Below, in pieces: positions 2,613 to 53,378 of a DNA stretch of 64,000 nucleotides. Within the stretch, counting starts at the first letter, position 1. Each line of letters opens with the position of its first letter. Under the pieces are notes generated by a model, which worked only from the letters and a program-made list of their open reading frames with translations, was not told where the DNA came from and ran no database searches. The DNA is from an uncultured Candidatus Saccharibacteria bacterium (GTDB lineage: Bacteria; Patescibacteriota; Saccharimonadia; Saccharimonadales; Saccharimonadaceae): contig CAMVCW010000004.1 in the NCBI GenBank assembly GCA_947166125.1, positions 2,949 to 66,948 of the forward strand, read 5' to 3'. Position numbers and translations under genes: made by a program.

Positions 2613-2681
2613 TATTTAGTATATTAACATTAGGAGAGTAAATAACTCACAACTTAAGGTGGGAATTCCAAAGAGGAATAT

Positions 2682-2852
2682 ATGGAAGGAAATACTGCGT
2701 TGTTAGATGTTAGCGCCCTTACTTCCGCTCTTACCACTTCGACTTTTGCTGGTGTGATTCAATCACTGCTTCCAATCGTGGCTGTGGCTGTACTTGTAGG
2801 CTTCTTGTTCTACGTTGTACGCTGGGCAATCGGACTATTCCGGGGCATTTAA
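2682..2852 (+). CDS. Major coat protein (pVIII-like), 56 aa
   Basis: MEGNTALLDVSALTSALTTSTFAGVIQSLLPIVAVAVLVGFLFYVVRWAIGLFRGI: amphipathic N-terminus, one TM helix, basic C-terminus; SD GAGG; strong hairpin directly downstream. Confidence 0.8.
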   Translation: MEGNTALLDVSALTSALTTSTFAGVIQSLLPIVAVAVLVGFLFYVVRWAIGLFRGI

Positions 2853-2858
2853 CCAACA

Positions 2859-2887
2859 GCGAGGGCGTGTCTTATTCACGCCCTCGC
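2859..2887 (+). terminator. Hairpin after the coat gene (terminator or processing site)
   Basis: Perfect 11-bp stem gcgagggcgtg/cacgccctcgc; no clear U-tract. Confidence 0.5.
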
Positions 2888-2907
2888 CCATAATATAAGG
2901 AGATTTA

Positions 2908-3012
2908 ATGGTACAATTAGCTCAAGCTTTTGTAGACGTTTTAGCATGGTTTTTAATTCCGTTTGCTACTATTGTAGCTGTTACTTGGGTTGTTTCTCTT
3001 TTTAGGAGATAA
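2908..3012 (+). CDS. Minor coat protein-like (pVII/pIX), 34 aa
   Basis: MVQLAQAFVDVLAWFLIPFATIVAVTWVVSLFRR; SD AAGGAG; single TM helix. Confidence 0.7.
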   Translation: MVQLAQAFVDVLAWFLIPFATIVAVTWVVSLFRR

Positions 3013-3014
3013 TT

Positions 3015-3176
3015 ATGTTTATTTTAATTTTTCTAATTTTAATTATTCATACTGTTTTATTATTTATGATTTATTCAGAAATAGAAAAAACTTTGGATAA
3101 TACTTTTGAAAATGGAAATAATATTATGCAAATTAAAAGATATTTTGTAAGATTTTCTAGAAAGGGAAAGAAATGA
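3015..3176 (+). CDS. Minor coat protein-like, 53 aa
   Basis: N-terminal TM helix (MFILIFLILIIHTVLLFMIY), basic tail; SD AGGAG; ATGA overlap with the next gene. Confidence 0.65.
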   Translation: MFILIFLILIIHTVLLFMIYSEIEKTLDNTFENGNNIMQIKRYFVRFSRKGKK

Positions 3177-3868
3177 AATGTTTCCGGTGCTTCTCTTTTG
3201 TTTTGTTTGCTTTATTGGGTGTCTTTTTTGGCTCATTTATTATAAATCAAAATGATATTTATGCTCTTGATAATATAACTTATACCATTAATTCTTCTAA
3301 TTATACTAATGTTCCGTATTATTTTTGTGATAACTCTGATTCTTCTCTTCCTGATTGTTCTGGTTATAATTATTTAGTTGCTTATAGTAACGATTCGTGT
3401 TCTTTTAGTAATCCTGCTTCCATTTTTTATTTTCAATTTTATAATTCTATGATTACTACCAATCCTACTTTTAATCCTCAATTTTATAGTATGCAATTAT
3501 TTGAATTTCCTGGTTATTATGGTTCTCCTTCTCGTTTAGGCTTTTCTGGTTCTTCTTATGTTTCTTCTTTTTTGACTAATGATTGTGAAATTTCTGTTAT
3601 TGTTTCTGAAAATAATCCGTATGTTTCAGGTATAACTCCATCAGGTTCAATAGAGTTGACAGAAAATGGTACTTATGATGTAAGTCAATATGCCGAAGCT
3701 GTAGTTAATGTACCAGAAACAGATTGTCCGCCTGGTACTGGAGGGAATTATCATGAAGATTTAGTAGCCATTAACAATTCTATTATGATTTGTGCTGCTA
3801 CTTGTCTTGTGATTTATTTCTTCTATTGTATATATCGTATGATAATTAAAAATTCGGGGGTAAAATAA
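3173..3868 (+). CDS. Prophage exported virion/adsorption protein
   Basis: Signal peptide, Ser/Asn-rich body, phage-type motif ELTENGTYDVSQYAEAVVNVP, C-terminal TM helix. Confidence 0.65.
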   Translation: MKCFRCFSFVLFALLGVFFGSFIINQNDIYALDNITYTINSSNYTNVPYYFCDNSDSSLPDCSGYNYLVAYSNDSCSFSNPASIFYFQFYNSMITTNPTFNPQFYSMQLFEFPGYYGSPSRLGFSGSSYVSSFLTNDCEISVIVSENNPYVSGITPSGSIELTENGTYDVSQYAEAVVNVPETDCPPGTGGNYHEDLVAINNSIMICAATCLVIYFFYCIYRMIIKNSGVK

Positions 3869-3869
3869 A

Positions 3870-5321
3870 ATGAAAGGAAAAATATGTGGTCTATTATCAG
3901 CCTTATTCATCACGCTTGGGTTGTCATTAAGTATAAATTTAAACGATTCTAGTGCTTTAAAATATTCTTATAATGCTTTTCCTGTTATTCAAAAATCTTT
4001 AACTGCTGGTTCTTCTTCTATTCCTAATGCTAGTTCTAGCACTTTTTCTGTTACTTTTGATTCTACTTTGACTTCTGATGTTTCTGCCCCTGAAGGTGTT
4101 ATGGAATATAAGCAACTTCAAAATGGTAATTGTGTTAATTTAGGTACTAGTGGTATTTTTGGTCTTGTTTCTATTCAAGATCGTAATCAAATTAATATTA
4201 ATTCTGGTTCTGGTCGTGCAGGTCATTATCGTTATTTTAATGTTCGTCCTCCTTTATCTTCTGATTATTCTAGTGTGTCTTCTTTTCCTACTGATTTTAT
4301 GAACTGTCATAATTCTGGTACTTATGACTATGATTCTATTTATGGTGGTACTATTGATATATCTACTGGTGATTATGATAAATTTATAGATATTTCTCGT
4401 GTTTATGGTGGTTTTCGTTCTGGTGGTCTTAAAATGATTCAAGTTCCTTTAGATATTTCACAATCTAATGTTGGTACTATTTCTTCTGGTACTCCACTTT
4501 CTTGGACTTTTGAAATATTTTCTCTTTCTCCTTTACAAAATATTTCTTCTTCTCCTGATATTAATTTAGATTTAACATATTTTCCTAATAATTTTGATAC
4601 TTGGTCTGGTACTGTTGCTGATTTTGGTTCTTCTCGTATTTCAGCTTCTGCTTCTTGTACTTATGATCCTAATCATGAATTTTTGAAAGTCAATGAAGAT
4701 TTAACTTTTTCTCACATGTATGGTTATAAGGTAGATTGTAGTTATACTGCTTCTACTGATATGTCTAATATTTTTGCTACTTTATTTATTAGTGGTGATT
4801 CTACCGTTAATCCTGTAAATATTTTTACTTTTTCTGATTATCTTTATTTTGGTTCATCTTATCTTGTTACTAATAATGATGATACTTATTCTGGTAAAAA
4901 TGCTAATGAGGAACCTACTGGTGATAATATTGAAAAAGCCCCTGGTTATTCTTCTCTTTATTGTGATAATGCTGCAACTTGTGATCCTCCTGGTGATGGT
5001 ATGTTTGGTCTTACTGAGTTATTTAATTTTACATTTATTAATCCTTTCGAACCTATTTTACATTTATTTACCGATAATGGTTCTTGTGTTCAAATACCTA
5101 CTATTGCTGGTATGATACATAGTGAAGAAACAGGGGTTTGTCCTTGGTTTGATTCTAATGTTCGCAATATTGTTACTCCCGTTCTTGGTCTTTCTTCTAT
5201 GATGTTGGTATTTGGTTTTGCTGTTAGATGGTTAGGTGCAAGGTCTGGTAATATGTTTGAAGATAGTTTTGAAGGAAGTTCTGGTGGTATATCTATTGGT
5301 ACTAAAGGAAGGAGTAAATAG
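3870..5321 (+). CDS. pIII-like adsorption protein
   Basis: 483 aa; signal peptide, S/T/G/D-rich ectodomain with Cys pairs, C-terminal TM anchor; sits before the pVI- and pI-like genes. Confidence 0.7.
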   Translation: MKGKICGLLSALFITLGLSLSINLNDSSALKYSYNAFPVIQKSLTAGSSSIPNASSSTFSVTFDSTLTSDVSAPEGVMEYKQLQNGNCVNLGTSGIFGLVSIQDRNQININSGSGRAGHYRYFNVRPPLSSDYSSVSSFPTDFMNCHNSGTYDYDSIYGGTIDISTGDYDKFIDISRVYGGFRSGGLKMIQVPLDISQSNVGTISSGTPLSWTFEIFSLSPLQNISSSPDINLDLTYFPNNFDTWSGTVADFGSSRISASASCTYDPNHEFLKVNEDLTFSHMYGYKVDCSYTASTDMSNIFATLFISGDSTVNPVNIFTFSDYLYFGSSYLVTNNDDTYSGKNANEEPTGDNIEKAPGYSSLYCDNAATCDPPGDGMFGLTELFNFTFINPFEPILHLFTDNGSCVQIPTIAGMIHSEETGVCPWFDSNVRNIVTPVLGLSSMMLVFGFAVRWLGARSGNMFEDSFEGSSGGISIGTKGRSK

Positions 5322-5593
5322 TGTTAGATACGGTATTTAATTTATTAAAAGTTACTGCTGTTGTTGCTGTTTCTGCTATTTTTATGGTTGCTATAATAAA
5401 CCTTGTTAATCTTATCAATTCTGTTTTATTTGGTAATATCATTGGTGAAATACTTGGTCTTGTATCTATGTATTTACCATTTAATGCTCTTGCTGTATTT
5501 GGTGCCATAGGTACTGCTACTATAGCTATTTTATCTTTCTTAATTGCCAAGAAAATATTTGATTTAACTTCTTGGAGTATTTCTTCTATTTAG
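5321..5593 (+). CDS. pVI-like hydrophobic minor coat protein
   Basis: 90 aa, almost entirely hydrophobic; canonical position between pIII and pI. Confidence 0.65.
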   Translation: MLDTVFNLLKVTAVVAVSAIFMVAIINLVNLINSVLFGNIIGEILGLVSMYLPFNALAVFGAIGTATIAILSFLIAKKIFDLTSWSISSI

Positions 5594-5623
5594 TTATAAT
5601 TTATTTATAATAAAGGAGATAAA

Positions 5624-5827
5624 ATGTTAGAAAATTTAGAACAGATTTATATTATCTTAATTGCTCTTAGTTTGTTTTTATTTATTTTGTTTATTTATTT
5701 AGTTTATTGTATTGCAGAGATTAAAAATCAATTGAAATCATTTGTTGATTTAGAATATAAAAAATATAAGGAGGATAATGTCAAGAACACAATCAGTAGT
5801 CAGCCTGGATCCGATAGACCGGAATAA
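5624..5827 (+). CDS. Single-TM protein preceding pI
   Basis: 67 aa, N-terminal TM helix; SD AAAGGAG. Confidence 0.6.
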   Translation: MLENLEQIYIILIALSLFLFILFIYLVYCIAEIKNQLKSFVDLEYKKYKEDNVKNTISSQPGSDRPE

Positions 5828-6464
5828 TAAACGACGTTCTGGTCCACTAGGTCGGTTTTTTAAAACTAAACATTATCATGGAAAGGGAATTAAAAAAACT
5901 GACCCTTTTGGCCATTATCTTTTTGTCGGTCGTCAACGTTCAGGTAAAACTGTAAGTGCTATTTGGTATTATGAATTTTTAAAAAAACGGTATGAAAAAC
6001 AAGGTAAAAAAGTAGTTTTATATAGTAATATGGGTTTTGGACAACCTGTCTTTAAAATGAATTTGTCCGCAATTATTAGAGAAGTAAAATTTGATAAAAA
6101 TGTTATATATATTTTTATTATAGACGAATTACAGAGTTATTTTCCAAAAGATACTAAAGACCAGACGACATTACGACTCATTGACGAGCTGACGGGTGAA
6201 TTTTCACAATTAGGTAAACGGCAGATCTATGTGCTTTCTACTGCTCAAATTTATGGCCGTGTAAATAAAAATCTCCGAGAACAATGTCTTTATATGGTGA
6301 ATTGCAGAAAATCTAAATTAACAAATCATGTAGTTAATGATTTTATAGATGGTGATGATATTTTGTGTGATGATTTAGGCCGTTGGAGCGGCGAACCGGT
6401 ACGCATTTTGGTTCACGGACTCCCTAGCACTAAATTTGACACGCACCGTATGATTACTGTTTAA
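5778..6464 (+). CDS. Zot/pI-like morphogenesis ATPase (no TM segment)
   Basis: Walker A GRQRSGKT, Walker B IFIIDELQ, downstream STAQ..R..K.LREQ pattern typical of pI; SD AAGGAGG. Confidence 0.85.
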   Translation: MSRTQSVVSLDPIDRNNKRRSGPLGRFFKTKHYHGKGIKKTDPFGHYLFVGRQRSGKTVSAIWYYEFLKKRYEKQGKKVVLYSNMGFGQPVFKMNLSAIIREVKFDKNVIYIFIIDELQSYFPKDTKDQTTLRLIDELTGEFSQLGKRQIYVLSTAQIYGRVNKNLREQCLYMVNCRKSKLTNHVVNDFIDGDDILCDDLGRWSGEPVRILVHGLPSTKFDTHRMITV

Positions 6465-6465
6465 T

Positions 6466-6589
6466 TTCTTTTTTGGCTTAACTGAATAAGAAAATTTCTT
6501 GCGGTTTCTGTCAAGGGCGGGCGAAGCCCGTTCATTTACCCTTGACGGAAATCCGCTGAAATTTTACCCTGTTAAGCGCCAAAAAAGAA
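6466..6589. other. Long nested hairpin (candidate single-strand origin or packaging signal)
   Basis: Nested stems ttcttttttggc..ttaac/gttaa..gccaaaaaagaa, tttctgtcaaggg/cccttgacggaaa, and a gggc-gaa-gccc tip. Confidence 0.55.
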
Positions 6590-6592
6590 AAA

Positions 6593-6656
6593 GTCAAAGT
6601 GGGCATTATATTATCCCTCTACTTGATAATATAATACATAAATTGCCCACTTTGAC
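6593..6656 (+). other. Rolling-circle double-strand origin candidate
   Basis: Stems gtcaaagtgggca/tgcccactttgac and attatattatc/gataatataat; ACTTGATA (6621-6628) at the tip matches the phiX174/pC194 CTTG|ATA nick consensus. Confidence 0.7.
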
Positions 6657-6695
6657 GTAATAGAATAATTATGTTATAATGTTAGGAGTGAGGTT

Positions 6696-7475
6696 ATGCA
6701 GGTACGGTATATTTCTAATATAACTAAGGAATATCCTGATATGATTAAGGTTGTTATTTATAAAGAACCCAAAACTTTTATAAGGTCTGACTTTACAAAA
6801 CGGAATAGGGAAGAAGTAGATGATGTTACTTATACTCCATCTATTTCTTCTCTTAATAGAACTAAAACACTTGTACGTGATTTAGTTCTCTGTAATGAAT
6901 TTGAATTATTTTGTACATTTACTTTTAATCCTGATAAAGTAGATTCGTTTAATTATATTAAGTGTTGGGGTAAAATGTCTCGTTGGCTTCATCATCAATC
7001 TGATCGTAGCAGGGAAGTAGGTAAAGAATTCAAATATTTAATTATTCCCGAAAAACATAAATCTGGCCGTTGGCATTTTCATGCCCTTATTTCTGGCTAT
7101 ATTGGCTCTCTAAGCCCATCTGGCTATAAGACTATTACACTTAGACCTATATATAATATAACTAGCTTTAGAAGCGGTTTCACGACTGCTGTAGGTATAG
7201 ATTCTAAAGAAGGTGTATCTAACTATATAACTAAATACATAACTAAAGATTTTATTAAGTCTTTTAATCAGCGTAGGTTTATGTGTTCACGTAATTTGGT
7301 TCGTCCAGTTAAAACTATTAATTCACCTATCTACAGAAATACATTACCTATTTTTAGAAGAAAAGTAGCAGAAAATAATGAAACTTTTGAATTTCTTATT
7401 GACAAAATTCAAGACATTTATAATAATGTTGATAAGGTTTATTATAGCCCTAACGTCGTACAATATGGATTTTAA
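6696..7475 (+). CDS. HUH rolling-circle replication initiator
   Basis: Motif I FCTFTF, motif II WHFHAL, motif III YITKYITK; own TGTTATAAT promoter and SD. Confidence 0.9.
   Translation: MQVRYISNITKEYPDMIKVVIYKEPKTFIRSDFTKRNREEVDDVTYTPSISSLNRTKTLVRDLVLCNEFELFCTFTFNPDKVDSFNYIKCWGKMSRWLHHQSDRSREVGKEFKYLIIPEKHKSGRWHFHALISGYIGSLSPSGYKTITLRPIYNITSFRSGFTTAVGIDSKEGVSNYITKYITKDFIKSFNQRRFMCSRNLVRPVKTINSPIYRNTLPIFRRKVAENNETFEFLIDKIQDIYNNVDKVYYSPNVVQYGF
7446..7473. repeat. Right prophage junction
   Basis: AGCCCTAACGT-CGTACA-ATATGGATTTT; 18/19 identity with the left junction over 7451-7469 vs 1743-1761. Confidence 0.7.
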
Positions 7476-8104
7476 GACATTACGGTTATGGTTTTTAGAC
7501 GGTTAAGTTATCGTCTTTTGTGGGTAAGTTTTTCCTGGCGGGCGGGAATTACGACTAAAATCGTTTTTCGACTAGCTGCAGTCCTTATTTTAGCTACAGT
7601 CATAATTCTTATTTCAGGAGCCGGACTTGGCAGTTGATAATTTCTGCAAAATCCGGCAGACGCTCGCGTCTTACTCGTCGACTGCAGTATTTTCTATATG
7701 GAGGCTCAATCTGGGGCCCAATATAATGCAATGATTTTTACAAAAATCCTCAGGTTGGACGCTCACGTAACTGGGATTTTGCAGAAATTACAACGGGCCA
7801 AATCAATTTTTATGCTCCTGAAATAGGAATTATGACCATAAAAAGCCTTCCAGTTTGGTGCATTTAGGCTAATTTTATAAGGTTTTGGTGGAATTTTCGG
7901 GTTTTTGGCCGAATTTGGGCTAAATTTGCCAATTTGACAATTCCCTTGGTTTATTTCCCTTTTTTATGATTTTCCCTGTTTTTGGTCGGGGCGTTGGTAT
8001 TATTCGTTATTTTGATTACCATTTTTGCCGAACAAAAACCGAACAGGAATAGGAAATTATAGAATTGCAAATACTAGAACAAAACCCGAACGCTTCCCTA
8101 TCCC

Positions 8105-9934
8105 CTACTCAATAGTCCAGGGGGAGGTGGCGGTGCCAGTACCGCCGGTGACTTGGATGTGATGCATTAAAGAAATCACAGGCCGCACGCCACCATTATT
8201 AGATGAGTAATTATATCCAACACTCCCATCCGTATTTGTAGAATTTATAAAAACACTACCGTCTGTACCTCGTCGCCAGTATGGAGTCATTGTCCAAATC
8301 CTTGAGTTGGAAAAAATATAAAATCTGGTAGAAAAAGTAAGTTCATCGGACGTTAAAAGAGCAATTGGCTTATTGAGCTGCTTATTACCGCCGCTGGCAG
8401 AATTAGTGGAATATAAATCTACGACATTCCGCGAACAAGTAAGCGACGGCGAAGAAACGAGTCCAATTTGATTGCGCAACATCGACCCAAAACGGTATTG
8501 CACTACACCAGACATCGTATCGTTAACATATGGAGCAACAATGCTATCTTGGCTAGTAACGACTGTAGATTCGTTGTAAATACTTCTATCATTGCAATAC
8601 CCAGCGCTAAACTCTAGCCTACTTTCATAACTACTCATCACATTAGGAAACCAAGTATTCTCTAGATAGTCTTTAATGGTAGAATCTGTGCTGTTGCCAG
8701 AATAGTTTTCATTTGTGCCAAATAACACACCATATGAAGTATTCCCATTAGTAGTCTTATAATCACTGTTAAAAGTATAGCCTGTCGTAACAATACTAAA
8801 ACTACCCGTGCCAACATTATTAAAGGCTTTAGTAGTAGTTCGCGCATTCGCTGTTGCATTCGCACAACTCCCAGCTGTAGTAACACCATACATGCCATTG
8901 TAGATCATCTTCACTCCACCAGAGCCAGTGGTTCTCACAATACGCCAACAAGTACCATTGGATAATTTTACGTAGTTTGGCCAAGCATCAGCCTTACCAT
9001 CTGAACCGTAAGTGCCTAGTCCTTCATTTGTGTCTAATATGCCACGGTAAAAATAAATGCTATAGTCATTTGAAGCATCGCTGGCGGCACCGTATACGGT
9101 TGGATCATAAGTATAGACGCCAGAATTAGCTTGGGTGATAGTGTCGGAGAGTTTGACGTTGTTTTCTGCTAGGGTGCCTTTAGTCATATATCTTACTGTA
9201 TCGTATAGCGTAGGTGGCTCTGGATTTGATACGGCATAGAAATTAATAATATTGGTATATTCTCCACTTGGCTGAGTATTGCTAGAATTAGCTGCTATCT
9301 TAAAGTCTATAGTTTTACTATTTGCTGGATTATAGGTAGAGATTAGTTCTGCAGAATGTTCTGTGTCTGAATATACTGGTAAACCACTATATGATTGCCA
9401 AGTAGTGCCATTGTCTTTTGAATAACTATAACCCCAAGTATTAGTGGGGAGATTGTCTTTGTTTGTAATATTAGCACCGTAGGCTAAACTAGCAAATGTT
9501 GCATTGGTGGTAGGAGTAGAAGTGGCGGAAGAAGCGTGAACTAGGTTGGTAGTATTGTAGTTAGTAGTATTACTGCCTACATTAGCCGTGAGGTTATAAC
9601 CATACGCCGTGTTGGCAGCTATGTTTACTGTAATAGTATTACTTTCTACAGCTGTACCTGGTGTAAGATTTGAAATAGTTAAATTATCCGGTGAGATACT
9701 TAGTGAGATGGTAGGGTTAAAAGTAAAACCAATACTAACGTCAGTAGAATAACTTAAAGCGGAAGTATCTAAAACGTTAGATAAACACAAAGTTATGTTT
9801 GCGAAACTTAATATTATGATTGTTAAGCTTAATGTTATGATTTCTTTCTTCCCTGTAAAATGGCTAGTTATGTTCTTTAAATTCAATGTTATGTTTCTAA
9901 CATTTGAACTTATGTTATTTTGATATTGCCGCAT
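8105..9934 (-). CDS. Surface protein: type-alpha N-terminal domain plus DUF6273-like C-terminal domain
   Basis: N-terminal TM/signal; N-domain similar to 51659-53122; C-domain motifs CWRIVRTTGSGGVKMIY, IALLTSDE, GGVRPVISL. Confidence 0.65.
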   Translation of the reverse strand: MRQYQNNISSNVRNITLNLKNITSHFTGKKEIITLSLTIIILSFANITLCLSNVLDTSALSYSTDVSIGFTFNPTISLSISPDNLTISNLTPGTAVESNTITVNIAANTAYGYNLTANVGSNTTNYNTTNLVHASSATSTPTTNATFASLAYGANITNKDNLPTNTWGYSYSKDNGTTWQSYSGLPVYSDTEHSAELISTYNPANSKTIDFKIAANSSNTQPSGEYTNIINFYAVSNPEPPTLYDTVRYMTKGTLAENNVKLSDTITQANSGVYTYDPTVYGAASDASNDYSIYFYRGILDTNEGLGTYGSDGKADAWPNYVKLSNGTCWRIVRTTGSGGVKMIYNGMYGVTTAGSCANATANARTTTKAFNNVGTGSFSIVTTGYTFNSDYKTTNGNTSYGVLFGTNENYSGNSTDSTIKDYLENTWFPNVMSSYESRLEFSAGYCNDRSIYNESTVVTSQDSIVAPYVNDTMSGVVQYRFGSMLRNQIGLVSSPSLTCSRNVVDLYSTNSASGGNKQLNKPIALLTSDELTFSTRFYIFSNSRIWTMTPYWRRGTDGSVFINSTNTDGSVGYNYSSNNGGVRPVISLMHHIQVTGGTGTATSPWTIE

Positions 9935-9974
9935 CCTGTTTTACCTTTTGCCTCGCTTAAAGTTTTATCTCGGT

Positions 9975-10172
9975 TGCGGTGCCATCTTTGTAATATATGA
10001 AAAGGCGTATACAAAAAATGGCACCGCAAGGGGTGCAATAACAAGTCATATACCAGCTTACGCCTACACAGAACTTGGTCCTTACGGTACCATTTAAACT
10101 GTGTAAACGCATATTTAAAAAATGCGGCTGGTTTTTCACCATATGTCTTGTTATTGCATTTTTAGTATAGCA
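9975..10172 (-). ncRNA. Structured 5' leader, copy 1 (undescribed motif)
   Basis: -10 TGCTATACT 10164-10172; P1 10141-10158/10034-10051; box A 10080-10095; box B 10016-10031; box C 9975-9985. Confidence 0.8.
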
Positions 10173-20021: not shown

Positions 20022-21653
20022 TTATTTCGCCACACATCGCACAGATTTTCCAGCACTCCTGTAGCCATACGTGCCGCCATAGGGAGTTTCTGGACTGATT
20101 TTACCTAAACTGAAAGATAAGTTATAAGCGGTATTTCCACTATTAATGGTGCTAGAGTAATAAAAGCCATTAGAAGAATCTTCAAGAACTGAGTTATTAT
20201 ATATGTAACCAGGTCTTGCGAAATATAAAGGTGCTTCAGTTAATGCAATACCAGTATCGTACAAGTTGTTATTGTATAAAAAATTCAATCTAGTAAACTC
20301 ATTAGTAGAACCAAGCGTAGATCCAGACTGGTTAGATATAGTAGGTAATCTCCATCCTTTAGGACATATAGAGTTCTTGGGATTCTTAGATATATCACTT
20401 AATGTATTTTGTGTTAGTGAAGAAGAATTATTAGAGGCTATAGCTGCAGTCCAGTTATAGTAATTGCCTAGTGAGAAATGTCCTGTTTCTGTACTATCCG
20501 TCTTGTTAGCGGTATATGATGCAGTATTACTATTCTGCCAACCGGTAATAGGGCCTGTATTCTGAAAACCTATCGTAGTAGCACTGCCAGCTGGAGTATA
20601 ATATGTTATTCCATTGTCTTCTGTATATCCATCATTATATTCCGCGTATTGTCCAGTGCTAGAATCGTAGACCACATTTAAGTCTGTAGTTTGGGAATTT
20701 AGTGTAGTGTTGGCTGCTATATCAAAATCTAGATTTTGCGTCATCCAACAATGTCCATCTTTAAGTTTGGTTACCCAGTAGAGTTTATTGTCCCTAATGT
20801 CTACTAATTGGGTAGAGGTCCTTTCGTCGTTATTTGATACAGAATTACATATGTCACTAGTCATATCTTGCATAGCAAAATATGATCCATTTTCATCGCT
20901 ATAAACTTTTTGCTTACCGGCTAACCAGAAAGCAGCGTCTATGTCGTTCATAGTTGAAGCATTACTATTTGGATGTGTCAGCATATACTTCACCTGCCCA
21001 TTATAAGTACCTGCATATTGTGATGATGATGTATATACGGCATAGGTAGTAGTAAAAGATGAACCTTTAATCATATCAGTGGCTCTTGCTGGAAGTGATG
21101 CTACTTTAGTCCACCTATCTGGGACTATGCCGTATATACCATCATAGTCTAATGTAATAGTAGGTGGAGTAAGTGATGGATCATCTTTTAGGTTATTTAG
21201 ACTCATAGCCCAGTTAGATGTATTACCTGACTCTGCTGTTCCTGATACTATATTAAAGTTAGAACTTTCTGCATTAACTAGTCTATTATTACCTTCTTCA
21301 TTATTACTATACCCTACTGCATATACACTATACCCATTACCATCATTACATAGTGTAGTAATGGTAGTCTTTCCTATACCATTAGTATAAGTACCATTAA
21401 TCAATTCTGCTGTATGACTACTATCTACTACACTACTTAATGTACAGGATGATGAGATAGAAAAGGATAAACTATCTGTGGAGGAAGTAGAGCCACTACT
21501 AGAACTAGCAGCAGAGCTATGAAATGATAAATGAGATAAAACAACACCAGAAACCACAAGAAGAGGAATAGAAACTAACAATACATTACGGAAAGCATAG
21601 TAGAAGAAATCTATTCTACTACTCATTAAAGATTGTTTTACTTTGTGGCCCAT
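20022..21653 (-). CDS. Surface protein, type-beta N-domain plus FISUMP (Fib_succ_major)-like C-domain
   Basis: GHCWMTQNL, GNYYNWTAA, SICPKGWRLP, SVRC motifs; N-terminal TM helix. Confidence 0.8.
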   Translation of the reverse strand: MGHKVKQSLMSSRIDFFYYAFRNVLLVSIPLLVVSGVVLSHLSFHSSAASSSSGSTSSTDSLSFSISSSCTLSSVVDSSHTAELINGTYTNGIGKTTITTLCNDGNGYSVYAVGYSNNEEGNNRLVNAESSNFNIVSGTAESGNTSNWAMSLNNLKDDPSLTPPTITLDYDGIYGIVPDRWTKVASLPARATDMIKGSSFTTTYAVYTSSSQYAGTYNGQVKYMLTHPNSNASTMNDIDAAFWLAGKQKVYSDENGSYFAMQDMTSDICNSVSNNDERTSTQLVDIRDNKLYWVTKLKDGHCWMTQNLDFDIAANTTLNSQTTDLNVVYDSSTGQYAEYNDGYTEDNGITYYTPAGSATTIGFQNTGPITGWQNSNTASYTANKTDSTETGHFSLGNYYNWTAAIASNNSSSLTQNTLSDISKNPKNSICPKGWRLPTISNQSGSTLGSTNEFTRLNFLYNNNLYDTGIALTEAPLYFARPGYIYNNSVLEDSSNGFYYSSTINSGNTAYNLSFSLGKISPETPYGGTYGYRSAGKSVRCVAK

Positions 21654-21694
21654 CTTTTACCTCATTTATATATATGATTACTACTACTCCCCCA

Positions 21695-21886
21695 TGTGGT
21701 GCCACTATATTAATGGGGATTAACAAAAATGGCACCGCAAGGGGTGCAAAACACTATTATCGTCCATAGCAAGTATGCAACGCCAATAGGTACCTTGCGG
21801 CGCCATTTCTTTAGCGTTGCTTAATGAGTTACATTAAAATGTGCTACGGAACGTCGATAAAAGTGTTTTGCTCTTTCATTATAGCA
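21695..21886 (-). ncRNA. Structured 5' leader, copy 2
   Basis: -10 TGCTATAAT 21878-21886; P1 21855-21871/21746-21762; box A 21793-21808; box B 21727-21742; box C 21695-21705. Confidence 0.8.
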
Positions 21887-22202
21887 TATAAATTTCTATG
21901 CAGAATTAAAAATCAAAAAATTAGAAAATTGTACATTTTACTAGTGCTTAAAATAAGCAAGGCACAATGAAATTTAAGCCTAGGCGGTTTGTGATAAAAT
22001 TGTTGTTCGCGCGACAAAATATTTTTGTGCGGGTGGGGGTTGAAATTATGAATAGAGTGTGCATATACTATAGGCGGGTTGGCTTCGGGGTTTAATGAGC
22101 TAGAGTTCACAAGCTTAAAATGTATTTAGGTTTGCGGTTGTGTGAGGGTCCATTAAACGGTTATTCTAGGTAAACTAGGATCCCTAGGAAGGAGATGGTT
22201 AA

Positions 22203-26374: not shown

Positions 26375-28090
26375 TCACCGGGCGAGACAGCGGATAGACA
26401 AACCAGCCATTTTTTGTAAACTTTTATTGGCTAAATTGACCCCACCCGTGTAAAGATGCAAAAAATAGGCTGAAGAATAATCAAGAGTATTGGACCAGTA
26501 GTAACCGCCCCTGTATAGTGTTCCAGCGTTTATGCCACCGGGTAGTACGAAATATAGAGGCTCAGAACGCAGGGCATTAAAACCATTTGATTGATAGTTT
26601 ACTGGATTAGTACCATTAGATGGTGACGTAACTATATCGTATCCATAATCACGGTAGAGTAATCTACCAAATTCATTATATTCATTGTCTGTAGTAGAAG
26701 CATTAGGTAGTCTCCAGCCTTTAGGACAAATAGAGCTGGCAGCTCTGGTGCTGTCTACTGAAATGCTAGCAGAATTATTAGACGCTATAGCTGCAGTCCA
26801 GTTATAGTAATTACCAGCATGATAATGTTTACATTCTCCCTCTGTATGACCTGCGGTAATACAGGCAGACAACGAGGTGTATTTTATATCATCTGACGTA
26901 GAGTTTGATGTATAGTAATATACATCACCTGGATCTGCAGAATATGGATAGTTATTTTGATTAGACCAACCAGGAACAGAAGTACCGTTTACTGGTAGGT
27001 TATATTTACCATTAGTGGTGTCTGGTGTCCAGGTGGCATTAGCATCAAAGTTATTTGTGTCCCAGCCTAGGTCTGTATCATTATGGGTATAGGTTCTGGT
27101 GGCGTCTATCTCTAAATCCAAGTTTTGTGTCATCCAACAATGGCCATCTGCTAACTTTGCTACCCAGTAAAGCCTACTATCTCGCAAATCTACTAGTTGT
27201 GTAGCGGTAACCTCCCCGCTGTTACCTACAAGACTACATATTTGAGAGTCCATATCCTGCATAGCATAATATGAATTGCCGCCCTCTTCATAGGCTTTTA
27301 TTTTACCCGCCATAGCGAAGGTAGTGTCTAAGTCTGGAATAGTGTTATTATTACTATTTGGATGCACTATAACATATTTTACTTTACCATTATAAGTACC
27401 TGCAGGTTGATATGAATTAGCATAAATCTGGTAAGTAGTGTTTAGGTATGAACCTGAAGCATCACTGTCTGTTATCATACTAGTACCTGATGTTCTTTTA
27501 GCTACTTGAGTATAGACATTTGGTATAGCACTATAGTTATCAAAGCCATTAATGATAGTAGGTGGAGTGGTAGGTACTGAGCCTCCTGTAGTTGGGTCTA
27601 TACCAGTACCAGTACCGGCAGTTAGTTTCATAGCCCAGGAAGAAGGATTGGTTTGAGCAGAGTCATCATATACTCCAGTATGGATATTATAGCTTTCATT
27701 TACTGTATTAATTAAGTCTGTGTTACCATCCGTGTCTCCACTACTACCTACGGCATAGATACTATAGCCATTATTGTCATTACAAAAGGCACTGAGTTTA
27801 GTATTGCCTACATTATCATCCTTTTGGCCACCATGGAGGCTGGTTTCATGTGCTTCTGTAACTACGGCATTTACTGTACAGGAAGTAGATAAGACTAATT
27901 GAATATTGTCTGTACCACTACTTATTTCTGCAGACGAATGAGGAATAGTGAAAACAAAGATAGAAAAGATAAGAAGAGGAACAGAAACCAACAATACATT
28001 GCGGAAAGCATAGTAGAAGAAATCTGTTCTACATGACACAGTTTTATGCACCTTTACTTTATGATTAGCTTTAGTGGTTCTATGGCCCAT
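26375..28090 (-). CDS. Surface protein, type-beta N-domain plus FISUMP-like C-domain
   Basis: GHCWMTQNL, GNYYNWTAA, SICPKGWRLP, SIRC; N-terminus shares RxDFFYYAFRNVLLVS with 20022-21653. Confidence 0.8.
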   Translation of the reverse strand: MGHRTTKANHKVKVHKTVSCRTDFFYYAFRNVLLVSVPLLIFSIFVFTIPHSSAEISSGTDNIQLVLSTSCTVNAVVTEAHETSLHGGQKDDNVGNTKLSAFCNDNNGYSIYAVGSSGDTDGNTDLINTVNESYNIHTGVYDDSAQTNPSSWAMKLTAGTGTGIDPTTGGSVPTTPPTIINGFDNYSAIPNVYTQVAKRTSGTSMITDSDASGSYLNTTYQIYANSYQPAGTYNGKVKYVIVHPNSNNNTIPDLDTTFAMAGKIKAYEEGGNSYYAMQDMDSQICSLVGNSGEVTATQLVDLRDSRLYWVAKLADGHCWMTQNLDLEIDATRTYTHNDTDLGWDTNNFDANATWTPDTTNGKYNLPVNGTSVPGWSNQNNYPYSADPGDVYYYTSNSTSDDIKYTSLSACITAGHTEGECKHYHAGNYYNWTAAIASNNSASISVDSTRAASSICPKGWRLPNASTTDNEYNEFGRLLYRDYGYDIVTSPSNGTNPVNYQSNGFNALRSEPLYFVLPGGINAGTLYRGGYYWSNTLDYSSAYFLHLYTGGVNLANKSLQKMAGLSIRCLAR

Positions 28091-28131
28091 CTTTTACCTC
28101 ACTTATATATATGATTACTACTATTCCCCCA

Positions 28132-28321
28132 TGTGGTGCCACTATATTAATGGGGATTAACAAAAATGGCACCGCAAGGGGTGCTATAACCTAATCAAAG
28201 TAATCGTGCGAACACATGTACTCGACGGTAACCCTGCGGTGCCGTTTGTAAGTACATATACTCGCCTATAAAATAGGCACGATTTTATTAATGATTAAGT
28301 TATAGCATCTTCATTATAGCA
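28132..28321 (-). ncRNA. Structured 5' leader, copy 3
   Basis: -10 TGCTATAAT 28313-28321; P1 28292-28307/28182-28197; box A 28232-28247; box B 28164-28179; box C 28132-28142. Confidence 0.8.
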
Positions 28322-48318: not shown

Positions 48319-49854
<1,536 letters not shown>

Positions 49855-51658: not shown

Positions 51659-53122
51659 TTAGCGGGCGAGGCAGCGGACTGGAAAACCATAAGATTTGCG
51701 ATCCGCATTAGTCGTACTAAAAATATTCCCATAAAATATAGGTGCATAGGCATTAGAAACGCCAGAAGGTGTACCAAGCCAGTACCAATTATATCCTGCA
51801 TATGCGATCGCTCCATTAAATAAACCGGCTCGCGTAAAATAGATAGGACTAATCCTTAGTTTTGACGTATTAGGCCCGTAAAGGTCATAAGTTTCTGCTA
51901 ACGTAGCGAAATCATTTACTGTTTTAGCCATTGGCAATTTCCAATTGCTCGAGCATACAGAATTAGGCGCATTGTTACTGGTTAGTGTGCTAGTATTGTT
52001 ATTTGCTACAACTGCAGACCAATTGTAATAATTTCCTATGTGATAATGAGTGCAGTCGTCGTGCCCCGCATTGATACATTCTTGTAACGAGGTGTATGTT
52101 GTATCGTTTGCGGTGGAATTTGATGTATATATGTATTTATCTCCAGGATTAGCAGAATACGGCTCAGTATTACTATCAACCCAACCATCCACTGTAGTGC
52201 CAGTAAAGTTTATGGTAGAGTGACCTTCGGTTGGTTTCCAGGTGGCAGTTTCGTCACCTGTAGTCCAACCTAAGTCTGTATCGTAATGGGTATAGGTTCT
52301 AGTATCGTCTATGTCCAAATCTAAGTTCTGTGTCATCCAACAATTATTGTCTGCTAGTTTTGCTATCCAGTAGACTTTATCGTCTCGTATATCTATGACT
52401 TGGAGCTGGGATCCTATATCTTCAGTCTCTTCGCAGATGGTATGCGTCATATCTTGCATTTTGTAGTAGCCATGGTAGAGTTCTTTACCTTCTTTAGTAT
52501 AGGCATCAGCTAGGGTGATGGGAGTTGGTTTAGTAATTGCAGTGAAGTTAATGATATTAGTATAGGTACCGGATGGTTGAGTACTACCTGCTTTAGCTGC
52601 TATTTTGAAGTTAATAGTATCATTGCTTGAACCAGAGTTTTTCTTTAATCTAGTGGGATTATTTGTAGTGTATAATGGTAAACCATTATAGTTAGACCAA
52701 GTAGTACCATGATCTAGTGAGTAGGTATAGCCCCAGGTATTGTCTGTAGTGAGAGCAGAGAGATTGGCAGTGGTGGGGATGCTGGAGAATACATCCGTAT
52801 TGTCAGTATGAGTGAAATTGGTGTTATTGTATGTTTCGTTTCCTACTGTAGCATATAGATTATAGCCATAGACGTTGTTAGTAGCTACATTAACTAAGAT
52901 TTCATTACTAGTGTCTGTGGTGCTGGGAGAGAGATTAGGGATGGTGAGATTATTTGGAGATAGACTAATGGAAAGAGTGGGATTGAAGGTGAAGTTGATG
53001 CCTACATCGCTTTGGTAATTTAATGCAGAAGCGCTGGGAACAGAAACTAAAACTATTGCTAAGCTGAAAAGCATTAATAGTGTGTAGACAATGTATAGCT
53101 TTTTGAATATGATTTGCCGCAT
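51659..53122 (-). CDS. Surface protein, type-alpha N-domain plus FISUMP-like C-domain
   Basis: NNCWMTQNL, GNYYNWSA, SVCSSNWKLP, FPVRC; N-domain similar to 8105-9934. Confidence 0.8.
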   Translation of the reverse strand: MRQIIFKKLYIVYTLLMLFSLAIVLVSVPSASALNYQSDVGINFTFNPTLSISLSPNNLTIPNLSPSTTDTSNEILVNVATNNVYGYNLYATVGNETYNNTNFTHTDNTDVFSSIPTTANLSALTTDNTWGYTYSLDHGTTWSNYNGLPLYTTNNPTRLKKNSGSSNDTINFKIAAKAGSTQPSGTYTNIINFTAITKPTPITLADAYTKEGKELYHGYYKMQDMTHTICEETEDIGSQLQVIDIRDDKVYWIAKLADNNCWMTQNLDLDIDDTRTYTHYDTDLGWTTGDETATWKPTEGHSTINFTGTTVDGWVDSNTEPYSANPGDKYIYTSNSTANDTTYTSLQECINAGHDDCTHYHIGNYYNWSAVVANNNTSTLTSNNAPNSVCSSNWKLPMAKTVNDFATLAETYDLYGPNTSKLRISPIYFTRAGLFNGAIAYAGYNWYWLGTPSGVSNAYAPIFYGNIFSTTNADRKSYGFPVRCLAR

Positions 53123-53164
53123 CTTACCTCGCTTATTCCCTTTGGTTAATAGGTTTACTTAGGA

Positions 53165-53378
53165 TGCGGTGCCATCTTTGTAATATATGAAAAGGCGTAT
53201 ACAAAAATGGCACCGCAAGGTGCTTTATCATCACTATTACTAACCAAAGCTTATTCGCCTAACTTAGAACATTGATGCCTTACGGCGCCATTGATAATTC
53301 TAAGTAAATAATGGCGGACAAGCTTTTAAAAAACTTTGGTCTTGTTAATAATAATGATAAAGCAATTTAATTATAGCA
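53165..53378 (-). ncRNA. Structured 5' leader, copy 4
   Basis: -10 TGCTATAAT 53370-53378; P1 53346-53364/53221-53239; box A 53278-53292; box B 53205-53220; box C 53165-53175. Confidence 0.8.

What the first reader, a model, noticed from the sequence alone, without database searches (positions are those of the whole stretch)
21695..21808. Three-box A/B/C switch in the leaders: two mutually exclusive folds, or cross-talk between paralogous loci
Seen in sequence: box B (CCUUGCGGUGCCAUUUUUG, invariant in all copies) directly follows P1. It can pair either with apical box A (15-16 bp) or with downstream box C (rUGGCACCrCA, 11 bp or more). The A:B helix ends exactly at a U5-U6 run, which is terminator geometry; B:C has no U-tract after it. 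A:B cannot coexist with an intact P1-P3 stem because B starts 0-2 nt from the stem base. Inference: a bistable attenuator (P1-P3 plus B:C = read-through; A:B = termination). Because only A, B and C are conserved, a leader displaying loop A could also pair in trans with B of another copy, giving coordinated or mutually exclusive expression of the surface-protein paralogues. Alternative: the three boxes are inverted recombinase sites for DNA inversion.
Basis: partly seen in the sequence, partly recalled or inferred. Interest (0 to 1): 0.8.

Follow-up and report, generated by a model that had tools for sequence, protein, structure and literature searches.

The report
Multicopy structured leader RNA in Saccharibacteria
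Gut Saccharibacteria carry at least 16 copies per genome of an undescribed, highly structured RNA placed just after a strong promoter and mostly in front of surface-protein genes; its tip is complementary to a terminator-like box at its foot, which points to RNA-based control of these genes.

Summary
Four copies in the window, and 124 non-redundant copies in gut Saccharibacteria assemblies, share one layout:
- an extended -10 promoter;
- an RNA that starts at the base of a 110-140 nt rod (P1-P2, a U-rich side hairpin, P3), whose sequence varies but whose pairing is kept;
- apical box A;
- 0-3 nt further on, an invariant box B followed by U5-6;
- in about 70% of the copies where enough downstream sequence is held, box C.

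Covariation for the rod is very strong. Substitutions in A are almost all wobble-compatible with B, so A:B pairing is under selection at the RNA level.

The proposed cis bistable switch is not supported. The rod folds first, a cis A:B fold costs about 10 kcal/mol, and C is transcribed after the U-tract. DNA inversion is not supported either.

Best reading (about 0.35): B plus the U-tract is a weak terminator that is completed when box A of another leader molecule pairs with nascent B. C recaptures B after read-through. ORF-less copies fit an RNA with a trans role. No RNA 3'-end data could be obtained. There is no Rfam or literature match.

The parts
21878..21886 (-). Copy 2: extended -10 promoter TGCTATAAT
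   Evidence: Read directly from the sequence. The same motif lies 3-6 nt before the rod base in 123/124 elements.
21746..21871 (-). Copy 2: rod P1-P2-(P2a)-P3-P4. The RNA probably starts at its base.
   Evidence: MFE z = -7.5. The covariance model alignment has 91.3% of cells paired against 54% in shuffles, and 48/49 pairs show changes on both sides.
21831..21842 (-). Copy 2: side hairpin P2a (ACAUUUUAAUGU) with a U-rich loop; acts as a mid-rod junction or hinge
   Evidence: A one-sided 5' bulge or hairpin (median 15 nt) with a U4-6A motif, about 25 bp above the base. Helices 4-5 of the model are 78-87% paired.
21793..21808 (-). Copy 2: box A, AAAUGGCGCCGCAAGG (5' arm, GNRA loop and GG of apical hairpin P4)
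21732..21747 (-). Copy 2: small hairpin T, GCACC-CCUUGC-GGUGC, followed by CAUUUUUG
   Evidence: Picked up by the terminator scan. Its energy in isolation is -7.5 kcal/mol.
21724..21742 (-). Copy 2: box B (21742-21731), then A, U5 (21729-21725) and G
21689..21705 (-). Copy 2: box C, GUGGCACCACAUGGGGG, which pairs with B and the CCCC before it
20022..21663 (-). Copy 2: SD GAGG (21663-21660) and a 543-aa membrane-anchored FISUMP-domain protein gene
   Evidence: TIGR02145 E = 3e-11. 1887 homologues.
10164..10172 (-). Copy 1: extended -10 promoter TGCTATACT
10034..10158 (-). Copy 1: rod. U-rich bulge at 10126-10108; box A at 10095-10080.
   Evidence: model match at 58 bits.
10013..10036 (-). Copy 1: GCACC, box B (10031-10020), A and U6
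9972..9985 (-). Copy 1: box C, AUGGCACCGCAACC
8105..9934 (-). Copy 1: downstream 609-aa protein gene with an N-terminal anchor and no Pfam hit
28313..28321 (-). Copy 3: extended -10 promoter TGCTATAAT, with -35 TTGAAA
28182..28307 (-). Copy 3: rod. P2a at 28278-28264; box A at 28247-28232.
28161..28184 (-). Copy 3: hairpin T, box B and U5
28126..28142 (-). Copy 3: box C
26375..28090 (-). Copy 3: downstream 571-aa FISUMP-domain protein gene
   Evidence: TIGR02145 E = 2.3e-12.
53370..53378 (-). Copy 4: extended -10 promoter TGCTATAAT
53221..53364 (-). Copy 4: rod. U-rich bulge at 53334-53324; box A at 53293-53278.
53202..53223 (-). Copy 4: hairpin T (GCACC-UUGC-GGUGC), box B and U5
53162..53175 (-). 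Copy 4: box C, AUGGCACCGCAUCC
51659..53122 (-). Copy 4: downstream 487-aa protein gene with an N-terminal anchor and no Pfam hit

Best explanation
This is a family of sense-strand structured leader RNAs, sometimes stand-alone RNAs, found in gut Saccharibacteria.

Shown:
- A strong extended -10 promoter starts the RNA at the base of a long rod with a three-way junction. The rod's sequence drifts freely while its pairing is kept.
- The weakly paired tip carries box A.
- Box B plus U5-6 follows the rod base directly and can form only a marginal 5-bp hairpin (T) with the adjacent GCACC.
- A is kept complementary to B by selection.
- C, when present, pairs with B about as strongly as A does.

Inferred mechanism:
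- By default the polymerase reads through the weak T/U-tract. About 30 nt later C captures B, giving the rod plus B:C state, which is the minimum-energy state, and the surface-protein gene is expressed.
- Premature termination, or a pause, happens when a box A pairs with nascent B before C is made. That builds a 12-16 bp duplex ending exactly at the U-tract.
- The RNA's own A is held about 45 bp away at the tip of a rod that has already folded. The A that does this most likely belongs to another, finished leader molecule, from the same gene or from any of the 16 or more paralogous copies.
- The result would be family-wide negative feedback or cross-talk on surface-protein expression.
- A fold-back of the rod at its mid-rod junction that brings the RNA's own A to B is the cis variant of the same idea.
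For: 1. RNA structure. 102 full-length model matches; 91.3% of cells paired against 54.0% in shuffles and 34-42% with slid partners; 48/49 pairs with changes on both sides. Median rod z = -8.2 over 126 candidate copies, including two later dropped as chance hits. U.G far outnumbers G.U, so the sense strand is the one that folds.
2. Transcript start. The promoter ends 3-6 nt before the rod base in 123/124 copies.
3. Selection on A:B. 1282 Watson-Crick, 191 wobble and 15 incompatible cells. There are no transversions at stem positions 2-4 of A even though its local partner arm is unconserved. A>G 57 against G>A 8 runs against AT mutation pressure. In the one B variant found (L082), both changes restore Watson-Crick pairs with its own A.
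4. Terminator geometry. The run of U is at least 5 long in 123/124 copies, including 25/25 ascertained without a T-run in the search pattern. The terminator scan finds hairpin T.
5. Energetics. Opening A costs 6.5 kcal/mol; opening nascent B costs 1.2; opening B once C is present costs 15.6; the 12-bp duplex gives -22. The net intermolecular A:B energy is -13.4 on nascent RNA and +0.8 after C.
6. No A/B divergence. A and B do not diverge between copies or genomes, while the rods have diverged to about 34% identity (copies reached through a protein search also carry the exact B). That fits a shared partner rather than private cis pairs.
7. ORF-less copies. Conserved copies without an ORF exist, with their own terminators (L010; the orthologous L136/L160/L109 locus). 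This argues for a role of the RNA beyond its own downstream gene.
8. Precedent. RNA pairing with a nascent leader can cause premature termination: pT181 attenuator (PMC3753616), RnaG/icsA (PMC2879508), pCF10 Anti-Q (PMC3181467). From my own knowledge, an oligonucleotide annealed next to a U-tract can replace a terminator hairpin arm (Yarnell and Roberts 1999).
Against: - No RNA 3'-end or expression data. Only assembled contigs of runs of uncertain RNA/DNA nature were available. In them, depth downstream of the U-tract is no lower than at B, which would argue against strong constitutive termination if those runs are RNA.
- B was the search key in most scans, so part of its invariance is due to ascertainment.
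- B has three cis partners (GCACC, A, C). That alone could freeze it without any trans pairing.
- The wobble pattern at A stem positions is also compatible with pairing to a GGUG-like local arm.
- The strength of a copy's own A:B does not correlate with the strength of its B:C (r = 0.03). This fits a pooled A, but equally fits no competition at all.
- Nested-structure software cannot evaluate a fold-back or a kissing interaction.
- The U-tract could instead be a protein or RNase site.
Confidence: 0.35

Rival explanations
1. Cis bistable attenuator. One RNA molecule toggles between rod plus B:C (read-through) and an A:B terminator hairpin whose loop is the rod's 3' arm.
For: - A:B with its A-tract and U-tract has perfect terminator geometry.
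- The two folds are mutually exclusive (gap 0-3 nt).
- B, as the hub of three helices, would be frozen, as observed.
Against: - The forced A:B fold is a mean of +10 kcal/mol above the rod fold, and 7-12 kcal/mol in the four window copies.
- The rod zips up before B is made, and A:B is never in the MFE at any length. P = 1e-9 to 2e-5.
- C is transcribed after the U-tract, so it cannot act as an antiterminator.
- The switch would need an unknown factor that holds or removes the 5' arm.
Confidence: 0.1
2. Constitutive expression module. A 5'-terminal rod protects very abundant surface-protein mRNAs from 5'-end-dependent decay, or is an RNase III processing site that leaves the B:C hairpin as a protective 5' cap. 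A, B and C would be recognition sites for a common RNA-binding protein or nuclease, not a switch.
For: - The RNA starts base-paired at +1.
- The downstream genes are secreted or anchored proteins, and one copy sits before rpsL.
- The rod plus B:C fold is the stable state.
- P4 and hairpin T share the same stem sequence, so one protein could bind both.
- From my own knowledge, long 5' UTR hairpins stabilise S-layer mRNAs in Lactobacillus and other Gram-positive bacteria.
Against: - It explains neither the directional wobble-only variation of A against B nor the invariant U5-6 run.
- It does not explain the ORF-less copies with their own terminators.
- A stabilising hairpin does not need a three-way junction, or a tip that is complementary to its foot.
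Confidence: 0.2
3. Compact folded RNA. The rod bends at the mid-rod junction (about 25 bp below it, about 22 nt above it), so that the apical hairpin meets hairpin T at the base (GUAAGG:CCUUGC). This would form a fixed tertiary structure or a ligand- or protein-sensing domain whose state sets the strength of T. It would be riboswitch-like, and entirely in cis.
For: - The junction and hinge are conserved, with near-equal arm lengths.
- T is the exact reverse complement of an idealised P4, so the two loops are complementary.
- The P1 base overlaps the 5' arm of T by 3 nt, as in riboswitch expression platforms.
Against: - The P4 loop is a GNRA tetraloop, which is too small to form a kissing interaction unless its two closing pairs open.
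- Few invariant junction nucleotides beyond the U-rich loop suggest a ligand pocket.
- The downstream genes are not metabolic.
- It could not be modelled with the tools at hand.
Confidence: 0.15
4. A, B and C are inverted recombinase sites, and the A-B or B-C segment flips as DNA (phase variation).
For: - The repeats are short (12-16 bp), inverted and invariant, and sit in front of surface-protein paralogues, as in Mycoplasma and Ureaplasma inversion systems (PMC2268961, PMC3047005).
- One copy (L100) has B-UUU...AAAAAA-C, which is the form expected after a B-C flip.
Against: - The promoter lies outside both segments.
- 0 of 124 copies have an inverted A-B segment: every rod is intact. 123/124 have the T-run on the B side.
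- There are no strand-change joints in 4 DNA runs.
- No recombinase was found among the 10 neighbouring genes checked.
- A differs from the complement of B by strand-asymmetric transitions. That makes sense for RNA and would hamper recombination.
Confidence: 0.02

Closest known systems
Antisense-RNA-driven transcription attenuation (pT181 RNAI/repC, pIP501 RNAIII, pCF10 Anti-Q, Shigella RnaG/icsA; PMC3753616, PMC3181467, PMC2879508)
   Same: - A structured RNA presents a complementary sequence on a hairpin tip to a nascent leader, just upstream of a U-tract.
- The predicted outcome is premature termination.
- There is a kinetic window before a downstream competing sequence is transcribed.
   Different: - The regulator is not a countertranscript from the opposite strand. 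Both partners (A and B) sit on the same sense RNA, and on every one of 16 or more paralogous leaders.
- In the known systems binding redirects a cis refolding. Here the intermolecular duplex itself would be the terminator stem.
- None of this has been tested experimentally.
Terminator/antiterminator leaders (riboswitch expression platforms, T-box, classical attenuators)
   Same: - A promoter-proximal structured domain whose closing helix P1 abuts and overlaps a hairpin plus U-tract.
- Alternative partners compete for one strand (B).
   Different: - No Rfam family matches.
- The competing downstream box C lies after the U-tract.
- The alternative cis fold is about 10 kcal/mol uphill.
- The regulated genes are surface proteins.
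- There are 16 or more copies per genome, with unrelated stem sequences.
5' UTR stabiliser hairpins of highly expressed envelope or S-layer genes (own knowledge: Lactobacillus slpA, E. coli ompA)
   Same: - A 5'-terminal stem that starts at +1.
- A strong promoter.
- Abundant secreted proteins downstream.
   Different: - Far longer, and with a three-way junction.
- An invariant self-complementary A/B pair and an invariant U-tract.
- ORF-less copies exist.
Site-specific inversion switches of surface-protein families (Mycoplasma Vpma/Vsp, Ureaplasma MBA; PMC2268961, PMC3047005)
   Same: Short conserved inverted repeats in the conserved 5' regions of many surface-protein paralogues, in a genome-reduced host-associated bacterium.
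   Different: - The promoter is not inside the repeats.
- No flipped forms were found.
- No recombinase lies nearby.
- Repeat variation follows RNA wobble rules.
Complementary kissing hairpins (ColE1 RNA I/RNA II, R1 CopA/CopT; own knowledge)
   Same: Two hairpins (P4 and T) that are reverse complements of each other, with complementary loops.
   Different: - Both hairpins lie on one molecule.
- One loop is a 4-nt GNRA tetraloop.

Membership tests
Intrinsic terminator / transcription attenuator | A G+C-rich hairpin immediately followed by a U-tract, located between the promoter and the ORF | tested here: met
   GCACC-CCUUGC-GGUGC followed by CAUUUUUG was found by the terminator scan. The U run is at least 5 long in 123/124 copies. 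The stem is only 5 bp and its 5' arm competes with the P1 base (opening B costs 1.2 kcal/mol), so at best it is weak.
Intrinsic terminator / transcription attenuator | Transcripts that end at the U-tract, with regulated read-through | not testable with these tools
   Only assembled contigs of public runs could be laid on the sequence, so there is no read-end information.
Intrinsic terminator / transcription attenuator | A mutually exclusive antiterminator fold of comparable stability, formed before the termination point | tested here: not met
   The rod is about 10 kcal/mol more stable than the A:B fold and forms first. C lies downstream of the U-tract.
Antisense-RNA-mediated attenuation (pT181 type) | The regulator RNA is complementary to the nascent leader next to a terminator and is displayed on a stem-loop | tested here: met
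   A lies at the weakly paired tip (opening cost 6.5 kcal/mol) and pairs 12-16 bp with B, ending at the U-tract. Net -13.4 kcal/mol on nascent RNA.
Antisense-RNA-mediated attenuation (pT181 type) | The regulator is transcribed from the opposite strand of its target (a countertranscript) | tested here: not met
   A and B are on the same sense transcript. No conserved antisense promoter was found: the U-rich motif read on the other strand lacks the final T of a -10 element in about two thirds of copies.
Invertible DNA switch | Inverted repeats flank a promoter-bearing segment | tested here: not met
   The only conserved promoter lies upstream of the rod, outside both A-B and B-C.
Invertible DNA switch | Both orientations are present in populations | tested here: not met
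   0 of 124 copies are flipped. No strand-change joints in 4 DNA runs, but these are contigs only, so rare variants would be missed.
Invertible DNA switch | A site-specific recombinase is encoded nearby | tested here: not met
   The 10 ORFs checked are PriA, Def, Fmt, GyrA, GyrB, a TraG-like ATPase, a REP/G2P replication-type protein and three without a Pfam hit; RecJ-like was read from the sequence (not scanned). Only the window was checked.
Known Rfam RNA families (T-box, riboswitches, 6S, SRP and others) | Score at or above the family's gathering threshold | tested here: not met
   No hit in any of the four leaders at the gathering threshold. The best permissive hits have E = 0.6-3 and are to unrelated miRNA and snoRNA models. 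Six other loci also gave none.
5' UTR mRNA stabiliser hairpin | A stem that includes the 5'-terminal nucleotides of the transcript | tested here: inconclusive
   The rod base lies 3-6 nt after the -10 hexamer, so the predicted start is inside or at the first pair. No transcription-start mapping is available.
5' UTR mRNA stabiliser hairpin | Lengthens mRNA half-life | not testable with these tools
   This needs an experiment.

The most novel reading that the evidence does not exclude
The 16 or more leaders in each roughly 1 Mb genome form an RNA-RNA network. Every finished leader displays box A on a rigid rod. Every nascent leader exposes box B for the short time before its own box C is made. 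Leaders therefore terminate one another's transcription. This would give collective dosage control, or winner-takes-all choice, among surface-protein paralogues in an ultrasmall episymbiont, where a single RNA molecule is already at roughly 0.1 micromolar. The ORF-less copies would be dedicated trans regulators.
Probability: 0.25. Interest if true: 0.85.

Novelty: new variant of a known kind. Interest (0 to 1): 0.68.

Why it matters
- Almost nothing is known about gene regulation in Saccharibacteria and other CPR bacteria, which have few transcription factors.
- This is a large RNA family, unmatched in Rfam or the searched literature, with clear covariation. It sits in front of the main families of surface proteins, the molecules that mediate attachment to host bacteria and exposure to the animal gut.
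- The family is compact, modular (promoter, rod, A/B, optional C) and sharply defined, so the competing mechanisms can be tested directly in vitro.
- If the trans reading holds, it would be a form of family-wide RNA cross-regulation built from sense leaders alone.
- Even in the most ordinary reading, it supplies a portable strong promoter and leader cassette for an organism group that is only now becoming genetically tractable.

Tried and rejected
- RNA evidence. Two RNA-run searches, one search of runs of any kind and three read-laying runs returned only Logan contigs. The strain of the window is absent from the RNA-labelled runs. The runs that hold locus L005 at 0.7-0.9 of words behave like DNA, with flat single-copy depth. 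No transcript ends could be read.
- B variants in distant lineages. Homologues of the FISUMP protein are all at least 53% identical, and the two fetched through the look-up of encoding contigs carry the exact B. Only one variant, in L082, was found.
- rRNA or tRNA as the shared partner of A or B. Complementarity is no better than for shuffled sequences.
- Antisense or internal promoter in the U-rich mid-rod motif. The hexamer lacks the conserved last T in most copies, so this was rejected.
- Sigma-54 promoter (TGGCAC...TTGC). The order and spacing are wrong; read directly from the sequence.
- attC, MITE or REP element. The copies share structure but not sequence, each has a promoter, and there is no R'/R'' core. 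Rejected.
- T-box resemblance (UGGUACCG in copy 1). It is not conserved across copies, the downstream genes are not aaRS genes, and there is no Rfam hit.
- Tuning of a copy's own A against its own C. No correlation was found.
- MAFFT plus RNAalifold on 48 copies misaligns the rods and returns only A:B. A model seeded on one sequence was needed to align the rod.
Full report
**WHAT IS THERE**

The finding lies on the minus strand. The 19-mer CCTTGCGGTGCCATTTTTG (box B plus a T-run) occurs four times in the window (10013-10031, 21724-21742, 28161-28179, 53202-53220). All four are on the minus strand, against none expected by chance. Each copy sits 85-100 nt upstream of a 487-609 aa ORF on the same strand.

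Read as RNA, copy 2 runs as follows:
- extended -10 promoter TGCTATAAT (21886-21878);
- six nucleotides;
- a 126-nt rod (21871-21746);
- box A, AAAUGGCGCCGCAAGG, at the rod's tip (21808-21793);
- box B (21742-21731), then A and U5 (21729-21725);
- a short hairpin;
- box C, GUGGCACCACAUGGGGG (21705-21689);
- SD GAGG (21663-21660) and the ATG (21653).

The minimum-energy fold of all four leaders is the rod plus a B:C hairpin, with z-scores of -5.1 to -8.5.

**THE FAMILY**

Nearly all are Candidatus Saccharibacteria or Nanosyncoccus MAGs from cattle, sheep, goat, rabbit and mouse guts. Lower bounds on copy number are 16 in one MAG and 10-13 in three others.

A metagenome scan required only CCGTAAGG, a gap and CCTTGCGGTGCC, with no T-run. 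It added about 30 true copies among chance hits.

After removing duplicates and chance hits, 124 elements remain:
- An extended -10 promoter (at most 2 mismatches) ends 3-6 nt before the rod base in 123/124, so the RNA starts at the base of the rod.
- The gap between the rod base and B is 0-3 nt in 124/124.
- The T-run after GGTGCCA is at least 5 long in 123/124, including 25/25 of the set ascertained without it.

Rfam has no match at the gathering threshold or at permissive thresholds. Two full-text searches on Saccharibacteria RNA motifs and noncoding RNAs found nothing relevant.

**THE ROD IS A REAL, CONSERVED RNA STRUCTURE**

The rod arms are about 34% identical between copies, which is essentially random. 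Even so, the median folding z-score is -8.2 over 126 candidate copies, two of which (L131, L155) were later dropped as chance hits.

Counting from the base, the first 14 positions pair canonically in 94-100% of copies against 40-53% when partners are shuffled. Each position shows 3-6 pair types.

A covariance model seeded on one sequence found 102 full-length matches in the held loci, and only the four known copies in the window, even with filters off. On the resulting alignment:
- 91.3% of 4557 cells are standard pairs, against 54.0 ± 0.6% in shuffles and 34-42% with partners slid by 1-3 columns;
- 48 of 49 pairs show changes on both sides;
- the covariation score is 0.80, against 0.19 in shuffles.

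The alignment is fitted to the model, which inflates the figure somewhat. The slid controls show the signal is not an artefact.

U.G pairs far outnumber G.U pairs, so it is the sense strand that folds.

The rod is not a plain hairpin. About 25 bp above the base, and about 22 nt below A, the 5' strand carries a one-sided bulge or short side hairpin. Its median length is 15 nt and it has a U4-6A loop motif at about +37. This is a three-way junction or hinge in the middle of the rod.

**BOXES A, B AND C**

*Box A.* A is not a free loop. It is the 5' arm (GGCRYC), a GNRA tetraloop (GYRA) and the first GG of a weak apical hairpin whose 3' arm is not conserved.

*Box B.* B is preceded by GCACC in most copies. 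Together they form a 5-bp hairpin T (GCACC-(CC)UUGC-GGUGC) followed by CAUUUUU, which the terminator scan picks up.
- T is the exact reverse complement of an idealised apical hairpin.
- The 5' arm of T overlaps the last 3 nt of P1, so in context T is marginal: opening B on the nascent RNA costs only 1.2 kcal/mol.

*A:B pairing is under selection.* Over 124 copies, the 12 core positions of A give 1282 Watson-Crick, 191 wobble and 15 incompatible cells against the invariant B.
- Substitutions are C>U (134) and A>G (57), against G>A (8). The excess of A>G over G>A runs against AT mutation pressure.
- Stem positions 2-4 of A never show a transversion, although their local partner could compensate. 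In the rod, by contrast, every position cycles through 4-6 pair types.
- The single B variant found (L082: CCUUACGGUGCCG) changes two positions, and both restore Watson-Crick pairs with its own A.

*Box C.* At most 2 mismatches to GGCACCGCA are found in 76 of the 108 copies with enough downstream sequence. C starts a median of 29 nt after B, and half of the C boxes carry a G>A change that makes a C.A mismatch. Median duplex energies are nearly equal: -26.6 kcal/mol for A:B and -26.2 for B:C.

**TESTING THE CIS SWITCH**

- Forcing the 12 A:B pairs raises the energy of the leader by a mean of 10.1 kcal/mol (range 0-20), and by 7-12 kcal/mol in the four window copies.
- Folding the growing chain shows the rod zipping up as its 3' arm emerges. 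A:B is never in the minimum-energy structure at any length. Its equilibrium probability is 1e-9 to 2e-5.
- C is made only after the polymerase has passed the U-tract, so "B:C = read-through" cannot be the deciding event.

The bistable cis attenuator therefore needs an unknown factor that prevents rod formation. I rate it 0.1.

**TESTING DNA INVERSION**

- The only conserved promoter lies outside both the A-B and the B-C segments.
- No copy among 124 has a flipped segment (all rods are intact and the T-run is always on the B side). The exception is L100, which has a short U3 after B and A6 before C.
- Four DNA runs that hold a related locus show no strand-change joints. These are contigs, so rare forms would be missed.
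- The ten neighbouring ORFs checked include housekeeping genes (PriA, Def, Fmt, GyrA/B) and no recombinase.
- The strand-asymmetric substitutions are an RNA signature.

I rate this 0.02.

**WHAT A:B PAIRING COULD THEN BE**

With the rod intact, an RNA's own A is about 45 bp away from its B. Two possibilities remain.

*(i) Intermolecular pairing.* An accessibility calculation gives:
- opening A: 6.5 kcal/mol;
- opening B on nascent RNA: 1.2 kcal/mol;
- opening B once C is present: 15.6 kcal/mol;
- the 12-bp duplex: -22 kcal/mol.

The net result is -13.4 kcal/mol for a finished leader pairing with nascent B, and +0.8 kcal/mol once C has captured B. That is a kinetic window. The duplex would end exactly at the U-tract, the geometry that causes termination.

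RNA-induced premature termination is established for pT181, pCF10 and RnaG/icsA (PMC3753616, PMC3181467, PMC2879508).

Three observations favour a shared partner or a trans role:
- A and B never diverge between copies or genomes while the rods are saturated with change.
- A copy's own A:B strength is uncorrelated with its own B:C strength (r = 0.03).
- Conserved ORF-less copies exist with their own terminators: L010; the orthologous L136/L160/L109 locus; and L100, upstream of an rpsL gene that has its own promoter.

By inference from my own knowledge, in cells about 0.2-0.3 µm across one RNA molecule is already at roughly 0.1 µM, so bimolecular pairing can be fast.

*(ii) Fold-back at the mid-rod junction.* This would bring the apical hairpin onto T, since the loops GUAAGG and CCUUGC are complementary. 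The near-equal arm lengths allow it. The tools cannot model it, and the GNRA tetraloop is small for a kissing interaction.

**BEST EXPLANATION AND ITS LIMITS**

I commit to an attenuator in which the weak T/U-tract is read through by default, C then locks B away, and termination is triggered when a box A pairs with nascent B. That box A most likely comes from another leader molecule.

My confidence at each level:
- it is a sense-strand structured RNA family: about 0.95;
- A:B pairing is under selection: about 0.8;
- the U-tract is a termination or pause site: about 0.45;
- the full trans mechanism: about 0.35 including the fold-back variant, and about 0.25 for strictly trans pairing.

The main weaknesses:
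- There are no transcript-end data.
- B's invariance is partly due to ascertainment, and could follow from B having three cis partners.
- A constitutive stabiliser or processing role (rated 0.2) would explain the rod and the B:C hairpin, though not the wobble pattern, the U-tract or the ORF-less copies.

**DOWNSTREAM GENES**

Two of the four window genes are FISUMP-domain proteins (TIGR02145, E = 3e-11 and 2e-12). The other two have no family hit.

Across the loci, the first ORFs are almost all 450-700 aa proteins with N-terminal anchors. They fall into several families: MGHKVKQ...FFYYAFRN, MR...ITL...SALSYQ and MATIPIEVI. The FISUMP family alone has 1887 database relatives.

**NOVELTY**

This RNA family matches no Rfam model and did not turn up in the literature searched. 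Its kind, a promoter-proximal leader with a terminator-like platform, is known. Its architecture is not: a rod with a mid-rod junction, a tip complementary to its own foot, a competitor box beyond the U-tract, and 16 or more sequence-divergent copies per genome.

Noticed in passing
window 2000-8000 (ORF 6696-7475 +): A low-GC island (30-34%, against 40-47% elsewhere). One of its ORFs hits PF23343 REP_ORF2-G2P, a replication protein of ssDNA phages and plasmids. This may be an integrated small ssDNA element, next to leader copy 1.
   Followed up: no
window 48320-49854 (-): The 16S rRNA gene stands alone, with no 23S in the window. It has an insertion of about 72 nt near its 5' end relative to the Rfam model, as is often seen in CPR bacteria.
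   Followed up: no
window 21929-22100: The intergenic stretch just upstream of the copy 2 promoter is covered by contigs of metatranscriptome-labelled runs. It has a plus-strand promoter-like site, TTGAAA-18-TATACT, at 22040-22069, so it may encode a small transcript.
   Followed up: no
window 59962-60094 (-): A different long hairpin: a perfect 16-bp stem, CAGAUAUCUGCCUUUA...UAAAGGCAGAUAUCUG-like, enclosing about 75 nt (z = -7.2). It lies between a TraG-like ATPase gene and a TGTGATATAAT promoter for ORF 59562-59960. It is only a borderline hit to the leader model (E = 0.13) and lacks boxes A and B.
   Followed up: partly
L009, L017, L024, L026, L033, L072, L099, L101 (100-300 nt after box B): A second conserved leader of about 200 nt (..GCAUAAUUCAYU..UUCGGRAGCUWCGYGAUGUGRUAA..UUACCACAUCAC..GGGGCGG..) lies between the A/B leader and the MGDKQYKTN... 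or MATIPIEVI... genes. It appears structured from visible hairpins in the sequence (not folded). No Rfam match in the three of these loci that were scanned (L009, L017, L033).
   Followed up: partly
L010; L136/L160/L109/L062; L100: ORF-less copies of the element. L010 has its own terminator about 60 nt after B. L136/L160/L109 (and, by its matching GAC box A, probably L062) form an orthologous locus with about 95 nt and a bidirectional terminator facing a convergent gene. L100 lies upstream of rpsL, which has its own promoter, and is the only copy with U3 after B.
   Followed up: partly
L157 (about 1880-1950, -): The rod's 5' arm and 3' arm come from two different elements and are joined at box A. 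This is either a natural recombinant between copies or an assembly chimera.
   Followed up: no
L023, L074, L111 (after box C): G-rich tandem repeats (GGGGGAUAAAA...) lie between box C and the ORF.
   Followed up: no
L050, L090, L107: Rabbit-gut contigs binned as Oscillospiraceae or Clostridia carry true copies of the element with typical downstream genes. They are probably mis-binned Saccharibacteria contigs.
   Followed up: no
L005:6369-6502 in DNA runs X36/X33/X37/X38: K-mers of box B reach 25-75 times the single-copy depth of this strain (for example 2220 against 34). This shows how abundant the element is across the Saccharibacteria of one gut sample.
   Followed up: no
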